A stretch of DNA of 64,000 bases, taken from positions 4,092,001 to 4,156,000 of the forward strand of contig CM035360.1 of NCBI GenBank assembly GCA_020137815.1, written 5' to 3'. The position numbers and the translations under genes were made by a program. This document shows positions 402 to 40,200 of this stretch, piece by piece. Origin of the DNA: Hormiphora californensis (Eukaryota; Animalia; Ctenophora). Within the stretch, counting starts at the first letter, position 1, and each line of letters opens with the position of its first letter. Below the pieces are notes generated by a model. It searched no databases and had not been told where the DNA came from. It was given only the letters and a program-made list of their open reading frames with translations.

Positions 402-2308
402 CCTAAAACACCCGTTGCACGCCGGCCAACAGCAAACTCTTCACTGATATCACTCGTAAGTTAAGTTAAAGTAGGCCTAACAGAGATCTATAAGATTAGA
501 GAATAGATGCTAACACAGTTATCGGAACGATTGACGGCAAACTCAAAATAATTTGTTTAAAGTAGTGTTGAAAAGTTTGAAACTTTATTTATTGGTTTTT
601 TTTAGATCACTAGCCTTTTACTTGAATCAATTATTAAACTATACTACTTACTTAGTATTTACACTATGTACTTATTAATCAACAGTTAATTATCTAACTA
701 GTTAATTATCTAACTAGTTAATTATCAATTATCTACCTAGTTAATTTCTCAATTATCTAACTACTTAATCACTCATCGAATTAATTACGCTATTTCTTAA
801 TTAGATATTTTATAACCCTTATTTTCTACATACATTTATATATATATATATTATATCGAATGACTGCCGACGGTTTTTTAAGGCCTTTAGGATCTTATAA
901 TCCTATAAGAGCCGCTTTAGAAGGCTTGTTAGTGGTGGGTGCGTTGCTTCAATCGACTGATTGAAACGGCGTCCTCCTAGCACTAACAATGCATAGGCCC
1001 AAAAGCGGGATATAAATTATAATTGTATTTGTATTTGTATTTGTATCCGGACGGTCTGTACAATTTATTTGCGATTTCGATGGTTTTGCATTTTTAAAAA
1101 AAGTGTGAATTTTTAATTTGCTTTCCTGAGAACATCTTCTCAAATATTAAAAACCTTTGGAAAGGTGAATTTATGATTCTCCCGTCATTGATAAGTAAAA
1201 AATGCCAGCAACCAGTCTTCGGTATGCGATTGGTTGTGCTCTGACGGCTGACCTATTTGGAATTCTGGAAAATAGGGGCATTTATGGCGAGTACTAAACT
1301 TTGCAGTTATTATACAAATGATGGAAGAGGTGGAGTTGGAAGGTTATGTGAATAAGAAAGGTTTGTTCTAGATATTGACCTCAAGCCACAGCTCTCTTTC
1401 CATTTCTTCCCCTTTTTGTCAGTCCCACTGACAGAATTGTCAGAAATGAGTAATGGGCTACCAAAAACGAAATTTTAACGGCCAAACCCCATTCAGGAGT
1501 ACCTCTAGCTATAGAAATATGCCACCAGTCACGGGTCACCACCAGACACCGAGAGTTAGAGCGGTTAGTGCCATTTTAGTGAATCAAATTTGTTGGCAGC
1601 GTGCACCTGTAAACAGGCCACGAAACACCCAGATCGTAACGGCGTATACTCCATTTTTTCAACTGTTCACCCCCCCAAAGTCGTGTGTGGAATTGTTTTG
1701 CGTGTTTATCACATGTTAACGTGTAGCGCGCGCCACGAAAATTCTAAATTTCAGTTTTTGGGTAAACAGTTGAAAAAAAATGGACTTTAACTTTAAGTCG
1801 AATTTATTGAAACCGACTGCCCACCCTATGACACGCGATTTGTTGATTGCGAACTTGAGTGTTTTTGTGCTCTTATTCTTTTGTTCTTCAAACAATTATT
1901 TGCCCTACTCAGCACTCCACTCTGTGAGACCTCAGACCTACGGCCATCATACACGTACGAGGGTTCTGCAGCGCATGTCAATCCATTTTCTTAGACTTAA
2001 ACGCAATCCAAAAAGAATTCGATACCTTCTGGTGATGTATTTTTTGCGGTCAGAACTCAGATGAGCAGAACAAGGGGGCGGACAGTTAGCTGATTTGGTA
2101 TATGCAACAGTCTTCTCGTTCGTGTACCACATTGTTAGAAGGACATTGCAGTTCATTCTAATTCGCTGGTATGCATTGCTTGGTTGTGGGTACACACACC
2201 GCTGCCTTGCAACCAGCAACCTGTCCTCTCTCACGATATCACGCATGCTACGTTTAGTTAGAGAGGGGACATTGTACCCAAATATTCTTTAGACTCTTTT
2301 GTTAGATA

Positions 2309-37256: not shown

Positions 37257-40200
37257 ATGAGACGCCGTAGTGGGGTTGTTGAACGGCCTCCCGTCCAACT
37301 ACAGAGGAGTGAGATAGAGGATAGTAAAGAAGATACGGTTGGTACACTTCGGAGGGTCAGTAGATCTGATGGAAGGAGGATTAGCGCTTCAGAAATTTCC
37401 TCTGGGAGACGAATTAGCGCTTCAGAAATGCCAACTCGACAGCTTACAAGTTTAGAAATAGCGGTCGGTAGAAAATTCAGTACTGGGCGGAGGATCAGCG
37501 GTTCTGAAGTGGGTGGAAGGAGAGTCAGCGCATCAGAAACACACACAGGAAGGAGAGTCAGCGCCTCTGAGACACAATCAGGAAGGAGATACAGTTCCTC
37601 TGAGATGAGGGCTACTTCCCCAAACAGTGCAGGAGGAAGGAGAGTTAGCACTGATGGACGTCGACGAAGCGGTAAATGTTTGATTAAGTGTAACCTATTT
37701 GTTCAGAAACTTTGCGCGGCGTATATCCCCGGCCCTGTCACTGACAGGATCCTAATAATAATGATATCTGTGATCAATTCAATTCCATTCAGTGATAATT
37801 GACTGTGTAATCCCTGCTGAACAGTCGTGCATGTTGCCTGTTTAGTACGTGATGTGGTACATGTTATCATGGAACTACGTAATATCTCAACATGTGTTTT
37901 GGTTGCTCAAGGTTCAATGCTCAACGACAACACATAGTATGGGCATATATTAATGCTTGCATGAGCACGAATATTATCTGATATCTGAGGTGAGGATCAG
38001 GGGTTGAGCATATCTAGTTCTCACAAACAAACACGCTAACAATATAGTACTCCTTCATAAATATTTCCATCTTCCAGCTGGTGGGAGAGGTGCTGTGGTC
38101 CTCTTTGCTAGACGTGACGCTTCTCTACACTTCAACACCATGACTATACCAGGTATATGATGTGTTTAATATGGTGCTGGCAAGCACTTTCGAGTCATCA
38201 CTGCGCTGGCAAGCGCAAAGGTGACCTTTCCATATAATATACTATACAGTCTGTCCATGTACCTTGGGCACGTCACGCTATCCCCTGTACATGGCGCTGC
38301 CAACCATGTACCTGTACCCATTTTTATTAGCATCATGGGTACAGGTATATATAATGGGTACAGGTATATCTTGAAAGAGACGTACCAGTAAGAATTACAC
38401 TGCTTGTCAAAAGCCATGTTCTGCGTGTAGTGATAGCTGTCTACTCAATGGATGGTTTTACACCACCTCCATACCATTGCCTTCACAAGAAGAAGGCGTC
38501 TCCCCTCTTATCCGACATTATATATGTTGTTTGTCACTTCACACGCGTGATTTAGTATGTTAATACTTACCTAGCTCGACCCCCTTTACGAATGTAAAGG
38601 AGGGTTAGAACATAACAAGTTAATACACACACACGATCTATCTGTCTGACGGCGTTGACCCAATCTGAGCTCGCACTGAGAATCAAAACGGGGTCAGCAC
38701 GAGATAGTGTCTGAGCAACCTCTGCTGTGTGTTATGGGTATAGGGTGCAGCACCAGATACCCCCGTCGGAGGTTCTCTTCCTCTCGGAGGAGGAGGCCCA
38801 GTGATATGGAAATGTGGGAAATCGTACCATACCATGAAGGTGCGATGGATGCATAGTTGCCATTTGTAAATGAAGGTTTAGAACTGAGCCTTAAAAATTA
38901 AATCCCTGATTATCGCTTCATATTTGTATTTTGTAACAGTATATTGAACTGCCAATGCTCTGACCGCGGTCCTCTCGAGAATAGGGGCAGGCCAACGCTC
39001 TTATCTGTATGTTATCGCCTTCTCGACAAACTATAAACAGACTATAACTCCGTTGTCCGCCCCCAGTGGGTGAACCACGATCAGGACAGACAGAGCGGTT
39101 GGAGGAGGTCCTGAAAGCTCTGACGAAGCTTCTCCAGACGGACGGTGAAGCTTCGGACTTTCTGTCCATTCTCAGTCAACTGAGCGATCTTACATCACCT
39201 GTACTAGGTAAGGGTAGGACGATATTGTTATTGATCTTTCCCTAAACTCCCACTCCCGTTCCTAGGGGGGTTGTTACAGGGTTGTTACAGGGTTGTTACA
39301 GGATGAGTCCTTTTAACCTATCTACATTAACATACTTGATATATACTCACTATCCCCCTTATCTTGATATATAATCACTATCCCCCCCATTATGCCAGGT
39401 GAAACTGCTAAAGACCTAATGGAGAAGTACTCTGCAGTCCACCAGATAAAAACATTCATGGACATACACCAGGCGGACCCCACCCTTTTGGTACGTGCGT
39501 GTACTCAATCAAGAAACACCCCAACACCTTTAGGTGCAACAACATCGTTGTTTATCTTTAATTCCTTTCCATCCCTGCAGACATTTGGCATGCGTTTCCT
39601 CGGTAACCTCTGTTCAGACGAGAGAGGAGCATTGTTGGTGTGTTCTACATCTGAGGACGTTGCAGTGACTGTCATGGCAACCCTTCAGAAACCACAATAC
39701 ATGAAGAACCATATTGTAATGGTGAGTTGCTATGGTAACCACACAATACATGAAGAACCACATTGTCATGGTGAGTTGCTATGGTAACCACACAATACAT
39801 GAAGAACCACATTGTCATGGTGAGTTGCTATGGTAACCACACAATACATGAAGAACCACATTGTCATGGTGAGTTGCTATGGTAACCACACAATATATGA
39901 AGAACCACATTGTCATGGTGAGTTGCTATGGTAACCACACAATACATGAAGAACCACATTGTCATGGTGAGTTGCTATGGTAACCACACAATACATGAAG
40001 AACCACATTGTCATTTGCCACATTGTTTATTTGAAACGTAGCAACTCTCTAAAAAACTTTCCCACTTTGACCCTCCTTATCTCTAAGAAACTTTACCACT
40101 TTGAACCTCTTTATCTCTAAGAAACTTTCCCACTTTGACCTTCCTTATCTCTAAGAAACTTTCCCACTTTGGCCCTCCTTATCTCTAAGAAATTTTCCCA

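What the first reader, a model, noticed from the sequence alone, without database searches (positions are those of the whole stretch)
2290..37260. Candidate animal operon: six co-oriented genes, five with a splice acceptor just before the ATG
Seen: DDX59, MED18, orf, STAT, TMEM60 and LRRK are all on +, with stop-to-start gaps of 228, 191, 293, 453 and 309 nt despite kb-sized introns. Five ATGs are preceded by a TAG acceptor 2-5 nt upstream (ttttgttag|ataATG 2305, atattag|gtATG 4217, gcattag|ccATG 6178, atttag|tgcATG 20100, ccatag|caaccATG 32118). The short gaps leave little room for a 3'UTR, promoter and upstream exon. Known: spliced-leader trans-splicing occurs in ctenophores and resolves operons in nematodes and tunicates. 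Inference: this is one polycistronic unit of over 60 kb linking STAT, a Mediator subunit and a Roco kinase.
Basis: partly seen in the sequence, partly recalled or inferred. Interest (0 to 1): 0.8.

Follow-up and report, generated by a model that had tools for sequence, protein, structure and literature searches.

The report
Comb-jelly leader-spliced, operon-like gene run
In a comb-jelly genome, five housekeeping and signalling genes sit head to tail only 191-453 bases apart, each with a splice site just before its start codon that likely receives the animal's spliced leader; they are likely copied in part as one read-through RNA, but a single 60-kb operon reaching the sixth gene is untested and doubtful.

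Summary
The window is from a Pleurobrachia-like ctenophore (DDX59 95% identical to P. bachei). The five TAG-before-ATG sites and four gaps (228, 191, 293, 453 nt) are real. Only 14% of window ATGs have such a site. They fit spliced-leader (SL) acceptors: the window holds a 44-nt SL copy, and 25 of 78 SL-bearing public contigs have an ATG within 5 nt of the leader. All five are TAG, against 8 of 50 internal acceptors.

SL acceptors do not prove an operon: nested genes also have acceptors before their ATG. The fifth gap (309) depends on an uncertain TMEM60 end and holds a near-maximal splice donor, so LRRK is probably reached by cis-splicing. In Mnemiopsis, DDX59 and a STAT gene lie on different scaffolds with other neighbours, and 7 of 30 same-strand gaps sampled are as short. 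No RNA read on these genes was obtained.

Verdict: an ordinary SL trans-spliced ctenophore gene run, probably partly co-transcribed (about 50%); one 60-kb functional operon about 10%. This scan noted SL-capped LINEs and an operon-like pair elsewhere in this genome, and a similar unproven cluster in another invertebrate.

The parts
542..585 (-). 44-nt genomic copy of the pleurobrachiid spliced leader, with no GT donor after it; it heads a 140-nt leader and an ORF starting at 401 (likely an SL-capped retroposed element; outside the gene run, but it shows which SL the organism uses)
   Evidence: 42/44 identical to the H. californensis SL in PMC8527503 (compared by eye). Contig L025 matches window 2-589 at 88.7%. 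A true SL RNA gene (L062) has GT after the leader.
2028..2250 (-). candidate divergent gene: TAG acceptor ending at 2248, ATG at 2246, 73-codon first exon; its acceptor is 57 nt from the DDX59 acceptor
   Evidence: Acceptor score 3.3; codon score -0.051 against a null 95th percentile of -0.065. No Pfam or Atlas support. Unproven.
2303..3991 (+). TAG acceptor (ends 2305) and intronless DDX59 CDS 2309-3991
4215..5989 (+). TAG acceptor (ends 4217) and MED18, 5 exons, CDS 4220-5989
6176..19810 (+). TAG acceptor (ends 6178) and orf3, a conserved ~190-aa gene of no named family, 5 exons, with two ~6-kb introns that hold nested genes; one frame break near 6470
   Evidence: 8 homologues, one full length. 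LYR-like Atlas hits score under 0.9, a lead only.
19990..20100 (+). tandem duplication of the STAT acceptor plus first codons: dead copy with AG ending 20009 and ATG at 20013, true site ending 20100
20104..31670 (+). STAT transcription factor CDS, about 17 exons; apparent frame break near 20484 (inferred)
   Evidence: STAT_int and STAT_linker above their cut-offs; exon frames
32055..33166 (+). TAG acceptors ending 32118 (weak) and 32057 (strong); TMEM60/TMEM185-like CDS from 32124; the 3' end is 33166, 36930 or 36947
33700..36811 (-). LINE-type reverse-transcriptase element, apparently 5'-truncated, lying in the last TMEM60 intron or in the TMEM60-LRRK gap
   Evidence: RVT_1 E 6.5e-32; ORFs
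36870..37256 (+). bridge region: acceptors at 36869, 36922 and 36930, strong donor at 37017, possible micro-exon near 37115-37147, CAG acceptor at 37193, then 63 nt of LRRK leader
   Evidence: Donor score 10.6, against a maximum of 10.9 among 56 modelled donors; acceptor scores
37257..64000 (+). Roco/LRRK-type gene running off the window; exon chain not fully assembled
Evidence: Roc hit E 0.009, under the cut-off; ORFs.

Best explanation
Five closely packed same-strand genes (DDX59, MED18, orf3, STAT, TMEM60) each carry a TAG splice site before the start codon that likely receives the ctenophore spliced leader, and RNA polymerase II likely reads through at least the shorter gaps, so the run likely behaves as a loose, operon-like unit that would also have internal promoters. 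Predicted steps: the upstream mRNA is cleaved and polyadenylated within the 190-450-nt gap; the downstream RNA is recapped by trans-splicing at the unpaired TAG; this gives single-gene mRNAs with 5' UTRs only 2-5 nt longer than the leader. LRRK is likely not a plain sixth cistron, because its 5' end is reached over a cis donor at 37017. The gene set is likely a lineage-specific packing, not a functional module. Shown: positions, gaps, acceptor-like sites, an SL copy in the window, absence of strong donors in three gaps, different order in Mnemiopsis. Inferred: use of these AGs by the SL, read-through, promoter positions.
For: SL present in this genome and near-identical to the Hormiphora SL, which is on at least 56% of Iso-Seq reads there. 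Public SL-bearing contigs: first ATG within 5 nt in 25 of 78 clusters, median 9 nt. Start-proximal YAG in 5 of 6 genes against 14% background. Best donor scores in the first three gaps are 3.7, 4.3 and 4.9, below the 10th percentile of modelled donors (5.1), so these AGs look unpaired. The five sites are all TAG, against 8 of 50 internal acceptors (Fisher P 4e-4), which suggests a separate class of site. In a Mnemiopsis sample only 7 of 57 neighbour pairs are same-strand and <=460 nt, so four in a row is uncommon (about 2e-4 per start). In Hydra a gap under 417 nt with a trans-acceptor was shown to be a promoterless operon spacer (PMC3273482 passages).
Against: No direct test of SL use or read-through was possible. 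Four nested genes also have an acceptor-like AG 11-29 nt before the ATG, so the feature marks SL genes in general. Antisense nested genes need promoters inside the unit, for example an ORF starting at 18856, 1.25 kb from the STAT start. The STAT-TMEM60 gap has a donor-like site of score 6.3. In Mnemiopsis same-strand gaps are no shorter than convergent ones (<=460 nt: 7 of 30 against 5 of 16; P 0.79), and a rate of 2e-4 per start would still give a few such runs per genome. Order is not conserved. 5 of 6 within 5 nt is more than the 32% seen in SL contigs (binomial about 0.015, by hand).
Confidence: 0.5

Rival explanations
1. Each gene is SL trans-spliced but has its own promoter, lying in the gap or in the last intron or 3' end of the gene upstream; the short outron is discarded, and tight packing simply reflects a compact ctenophore genome.
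For: Nested genes share the acceptor-before-ATG layout. A candidate divergent gene has its acceptor 57 nt from DDX59's, which would show that starts can be packed very tightly (unproven). TATAAAC lies in 3 of 4 gaps, 96-226 nt before the acceptor, and could be a TATA box. Mnemiopsis DDX59 is again 319 nt from a same-strand neighbour, but a different gene, hnRNP K-like. No same-strand excess of short gaps in the Mnemiopsis sample. In tunicates the same SL goes to monocistronic and operon genes (PMC7986045 passages).
Against: Four short same-strand gaps in a row are uncommon in the Mnemiopsis sample. Divergent pairs, which must hold promoters, were <=460 nt in only 1 of 11 (difference not significant, P 0.31). 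TATAAAC can equally be a variant poly(A) signal. The Hydra precedent showed no promoter in a similar gap.
Confidence: 0.35
2. One reading: one promoter upstream of DDX59 drives a single transcript of over 60 kb through all six genes, functionally linking STAT, Mediator and a Roco kinase.
For: Co-orientation, four confirmed short gaps and five acceptors. If TMEM60 ends at 36947 or 36930, its last exon is cis-spliced onward into the LRRK leader, which would tie the two genes together.
Against: TMEM60's end is undetermined. LRRK has no start-proximal acceptor. Mnemiopsis DDX59, a STAT5-like gene and an LRRK2-like gene lie on scaffolds 004, 066 and 025; orthology of the last two is not tested. Chaetognath operons are depleted of signalling genes (PMC12460157 passages). 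Nested genes imply internal promoters.
Confidence: 0.1
3. The AGs are ordinary cis acceptors of 5' UTR introns whose first exons lie in the gaps or further upstream, with no SL involved.
For: This probably holds for LRRK (donor 37017, CAG acceptor 37193) and possibly TMEM60 (donor-like site at 31699, score 6.3). Donor-like sites of 6.3-7.0 exist upstream of DDX59.
Against: No adequate donor in the first three gaps. TAG against CAG contrast. SL on over half of pleurobrachiid mRNAs.
Confidence: 0.05

Closest known systems
SL trans-splicing in pleurobrachiid ctenophores (Hormiphora californensis, PMC8527503 passages; Derelle et al. 2010, seen only as cited there)
   Same: Near-identical 44-nt leader; leader copies scattered in the genome; nested intronic genes are common.
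   Different: The paper does not contain the words operon or polycistron (0 occurrences) and gives no acceptor consensus in the passages seen.
Operon-like gene clusters of Pleurobrachia bachei (Moroz et al. 2014, Nature; recalled from memory, paper not held)
   Same: Same genus. As I recall, operons and trans-splicing were described there as abundant, with clusters of several genes, predicted from the genome.
   Different: Could not be read, so neither the wording nor whether this cluster is listed could be checked.
Hydra RFC140-flp bicistronic operon (PMC3273482 passages)
   Same: Non-bilaterian; gap under 417 nt with a trans-splice acceptor before the downstream gene.
   Different: Two genes, proven with reporters; here five or six genes and no experiment.
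Single-SL operons of Ciona, Oikopleura and the chaetognath P. gotoi (PMC7986045, PMC12460157 passages)
   Same: No operon-specific leader; operons called from SL plus short distance; mostly housekeeping genes.
   Different: Their cut-offs are 60-250 nt between gene ends. Here only stop-to-start distances are known (191-453 nt), introns reach 6.8 kb and hold nested genes, and STAT is a signalling gene.
C. elegans SL2 operons (PMC7986045 passages; hybrid operons with internal promoters recalled)
   Same: Poly(A) site to acceptor of about 100 nt would fit these gaps.
   Different: No second, operon-specific SL was seen: all 97 loci carried the same variant within the 26-nt pattern, but the pattern would miss divergent leaders.

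Membership tests
SL trans-spliced genes | organism has an SL and SL RNA genes | tested here: met
   SL copy at 542-585; SL RNA gene with GT donor in public contig L062, species unknown; PMC8527503
SL trans-spliced genes | unpaired 3' splice acceptor upstream of the start codon | tested here: met
   Met for MED18, orf3 and STAT; DDX59 and TMEM60 have donor-like sites further upstream; not met for LRRK
SL trans-spliced genes | SL joined to these exact AGs in mRNA | tested here: inconclusive
   The only run offered did not cover the exons; none of the 85 SL contigs encodes these genes
Eukaryotic operon | co-oriented genes with short spacing | tested here: met
   Four gaps of 191-453 nt stop to start; fifth gap uncertain
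Eukaryotic operon | spacing distinct from the genome's non-operon neighbours | tested here: inconclusive
   No genome held; Mnemiopsis proxy of 57 pairs shows no same-strand excess
Eukaryotic operon | single upstream promoter, none in the gaps | not testable with these tools
   Needs nascent TSS mapping, ATAC/H3K4me3 or reporters
Eukaryotic operon | polycistronic precursor spanning the gaps | tested here: inconclusive
   No cover in run X1
Conserved functional gene cluster | same neighbours in a distant relative | tested here: not met
   Mnemiopsis DDX59 is followed by hnRNP K-like; the STAT5-like gene is on another scaffold, 4.7 kb behind an unrelated gene
SL2-type nematode operon | operon-specific SL variant | not testable with these tools
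   No reads on these genes; the search pattern covered one leader family only

The most novel reading that the evidence does not exclude
Pleurobrachia transcribes an intron-rich polycistron of 30 to over 60 kb that puts STAT under a housekeeping promoter. Trans-splice sites are told from cis sites by a TAG code, same-strand nested genes are cut out of the same precursor, and TMEM60 is cis-spliced into the LRRK leader. [quoted passage not shown]
Probability: 0.15. Interest if true: 0.7.

Novelty: new member of a known kind. Interest (0 to 1): 0.38.

Why it matters
Ctenophore SL trans-splicing is published, but seven searches of the held library for ctenophore operons or trans-splicing listed no paper whose title or abstract reports an experimentally shown ctenophore operon; the two key older papers were not held. 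This locus offers four short gaps that can be tested by RT-PCR or reporter, as was done in Hydra. The TAG-versus-CAG contrast, if it holds genome-wide, would help place 5' ends in ctenophore annotation. As a functional STAT-Mediator-LRRK module it matters little, because the order is not conserved.

Tried and rejected
RNA: no RNA holder listed; one same-label run X1, guessed to be RNA. Laid on 1-7300 and 30560-39690, it covered the SL copy and a few repeats but no exon, and gave no joints. This is no evidence either way.

Genomes and homologues: no own genome held. STAT exon 1 found no homologue by word search, and neither STAT N-terminal exon matched the PDB. Viral and prokaryote collections held no relative of DDX59, orf3 or the SL. 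Synteny by Bolinopsis accession numbers failed: only DDX59 had one.

Papers: supplements of PMC10876535 (4 files; 1 picture PDF unread) and PMC6278862 (1 file) had no hits. MED18 and TMEM60 are absent from the Mnemiopsis table, which lists only genes in sweep windows. PMC12221973, PMC11797021 and PMC11184263 do not contain 'operon' or 'trans-splic'.

Sequence signals: branch-point motifs do not discriminate (3 of 5 start sites, 28 of 50 cis acceptors, 36% of random positions). Canonical AATAAA/ATTAAA is absent from three of four gaps, but also from two of four nested genes, so it is uninformative. A first orf3 model using an acceptor at 6450 was dropped after P0131 showed that the exon starts earlier and has a frame break.
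Full report
Organism. The intronless ORF at 2309-3991 is DDX59: 95% identical to Pleurobrachia bachei model sb/3465583, and 45-49% to a group of unnamed proteins, one cluster of which holds Bolinopsis microptera DDX59. MED18 is 94-100% identical to P. bachei. The window is therefore from a Pleurobrachia-like ctenophore. No whole genome was held.

Checking the observation. 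Exon models with GT-AG introns give open frames for MED18 (5 exons, stop 5989) and TMEM60. For orf3 (stop 19810) and STAT (stop 31670) they do so apart from one frame break each. The orf3 break near 6470 is shown against homologue P0131. The STAT break near 20484 is inferred from the frames, and my joined STAT model was not brought fully into frame; its exons were read one by one. Stop-to-start gaps are 228, 191, 293 and 453 nt. The five TAGs lie 3, 2, 2, 3 and 5 nt before the ATGs. Against all 2231 ATGs on both strands, 317 have a YAG 1-5 nt upstream (P = 3e-4 for 5 of 6) and 131 a TAG 2-5 nt upstream (P = 4e-6). With a matrix from 50 internal acceptors (leave-one-out median 7.8, lower quartile 5.6) the five sites score 4.1, 4.7, 5.6, 4.4 and 0.6. 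The matrix penalises T at -3. Five candidate acceptors were dropped before the count: 3 mis-placed and 2 not found.

The fifth gap is not secure. TMEM60 can end at 33166 without a further intron, or at 36930 or 36947 behind a 3.7-kb intron that holds a LINE. Only the last gives 309 nt. Whichever is right, a donor at 37017 scores 10.6 (56 modelled donors: median 7.3, maximum 10.9), and a CAG acceptor at 37193 lies 63 nt before the LRRK ATG. LRRK is therefore probably entered by cis-splicing from an exon that either ends TMEM60 or is LRRK's own first exon. Intron sizes: 26 modelled introns, median 258 nt, 5 over 1 kb (lengths taken from my models). The long ones hold nested genes and repeats.

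Evidence that the sites take the spliced leader. (a) The window carries a 44-nt leader at 542-585 on the minus strand, 42/44 identical to the Hormiphora leader, which is on 56% of Iso-Seq reads and has 718 genomic copies there (PMC8527503 passages). Run X1 laid 242 contigs on 1-7300, with depth almost only at this copy and loose ends running into other sequences (RNA is a guess). (b) A scan of public metagenome contigs with 26 leader letters gave 97 loci. I set aside 12 as genomic-type and merged the remaining 85 into 78 clusters. The first ATG lies within 5 nt of the leader in 25 of 78 and within 20 nt in 59 of 78, median 9; the longest-ORF start is within 5 nt in 22 of 78. Their species are unknown and none encodes a window gene. 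(c) The best donors in the first three gaps score 3.7, 4.3 and 4.9, under the 10th percentile of real donors (5.1). The STAT-TMEM60 gap has one of 6.3. (d) All five sites are TAG against 8 of 50 internal acceptors (Fisher P 4e-4). This is post hoc and the sample is small; of four nested genes, the best AG within 30 nt is TAG in one and CAG in three. (e) The STAT acceptor with its first codons is tandemly duplicated at 20009/20013, like the splice-junction duplications visible in several introns of this window.

Evidence on co-transcription. SL acceptors mark monocistronic genes as well (PMC7986045 passages), and the four nested genes examined have acceptor-like AGs 11-29 nt before their ATG. 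What remains is spacing. As a proxy I used the Mnemiopsis table in PMC13231562, supplementary file 3 (4 of 89 parts read, plus search hits). From 35 windows I took 57 neighbour pairs. Left out were single-gene windows, five nested or overlapping models, and pairs across skipped ids at jg20392 and jg19397-19403; one pair across a skipped id was kept, and three windows came from searches next to DDX59 and STAT. Gaps <=460 nt: 7 of 30 tandem, 5 of 16 convergent, 1 of 11 divergent; medians 1070, 1098 and 1411; differences not significant. The sample favours short gaps and includes probable split models. Four tandem short gaps in a row have a chance of about 2e-4 per start, which is uncommon but allows a few per genome. 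The order is not conserved. Mnemiopsis DDX59 (scaffold 004) is followed after 319 nt by an hnRNP K-like gene; a STAT5-like gene lies on scaffold 066, 4.7 kb behind an unrelated gene; an LRRK2-like gene lies on 025 (orthology of the last two untested). Inside the unit lie antisense ORFs (for example 18856-17843, and near 22.7-24 kb and 28.9-29.7 kb) that need promoters of their own. A candidate divergent gene starts at 2246, with a TAG acceptor 57 nt from DDX59's, but it has no homologue support. TATAAAC occurs in three of four gaps (12 copies in the window, 0.11 expected in the gaps) and could be a poly(A) variant or a TATA box.

Mechanism. Most likely each mRNA gets the leader at the TAG. Polymerase likely reads on through the short gaps after 3' cleavage, so that downstream genes can be made from upstream transcription, as shown for a similar gap in Hydra (PMC3273482 passages). 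Extra promoters in introns likely feed STAT and LRRK. I put this at 0.5, separate promoters for every gene at 0.35, one strict unit of over 60 kb at 0.1, and cis-spliced leaders at 0.05. The anatomy, the leader copy, the scores and the non-conservation are shown. Leader use at these sites, read-through and promoter positions are inferred.

Relation to what is known. It works like the single-leader operons of tunicates, chaetognaths (PMC12460157 passages) and Hydra. Membership in 'operon' is not established, because the promoter and precursor tests could not be run. I recall that the P. bachei genome paper (Moroz et al. 2014) already described operon-like clusters as abundant; it and Derelle et al. 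2010 were not held, so this is unverified, and their supplements may list this cluster. Seven library searches (listings and abstract starts only) showed no experimental ctenophore operon.

Verdict. Real anatomy, probably ordinary for this genus, useful as a test locus. New member of a known kind; interest 0.38.

Noticed in passing
window 1-585 (-): A spliced-leader copy without a donor heads an ORF running off the window. Contig L025 is an 88.7% relative, and L016, L028, L044, L060, L089 and L096 have a similar layout. Likely an SL-capped retroelement, as noted earlier in this scan.
   Followed up: partly
window 2028-2250 (-): Candidate gene head to head with DDX59, the two acceptors only 57 nt apart; if real, both outrons would overlap the other gene in antisense.
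   Followed up: partly
window 2305, 4217, 6178, 20100, 32118 against 50 internal acceptors: Start-proximal acceptors are all TAG, whereas internal ones are 84% CAG: a possible trans-versus-cis acceptor code.
   Followed up: partly
window 36870-37256 (+): Spliced bridge between TMEM60 and LRRK, with a short ORF from 36935 behind a TAG acceptor and two start-stop mini-ORFs in the LRRK leader: possible dicistronic mRNA or regulated leader.
   Followed up: partly
window ~7560-8400 (-) and ~10300-11050 (+): Inverted pair of small cysteine-rich, apparently secreted genes (pacifastin-like hit under the cut-off) nested in orf3 intron 3, flanking an inverted repeat near 8.8-10.2 kb.
   Followed up: no
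window 17843-18856 (-), 54574-55374 (+), 22686-24030 (-), 28865-29726 (-): Further nested genes: a 7TM-looking ORF (no Pfam hit), a rhodopsin-family GPCR (7tm_1), and two unnamed antisense genes in STAT introns.
   Followed up: no
window ~6470 and ~20484: Single-base frame breaks in orf3 exon 2 (shown against P0131) and STAT exon 2 (inferred); likely assembly indels.
   Followed up: partly
window 26570-28010, 39720-40010, 46520-46660, 19990-20100: Tandem duplications of exon ends together with their splice sites, up to 1.4 kb of copies of a STAT exon end plus donor.
   Followed up: no
window 6181-19810: orf3 is a conserved gene with 8 homologues and no Pfam family; weak Atlas leads to LYR-motif mitochondrial proteins.
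   Followed up: partly
L062 ~680-850: Complete-looking pleurobrachiid SL RNA gene (leader followed by a GT donor), with two copies on one 1.9-kb public contig (L062, L063).
   Followed up: no
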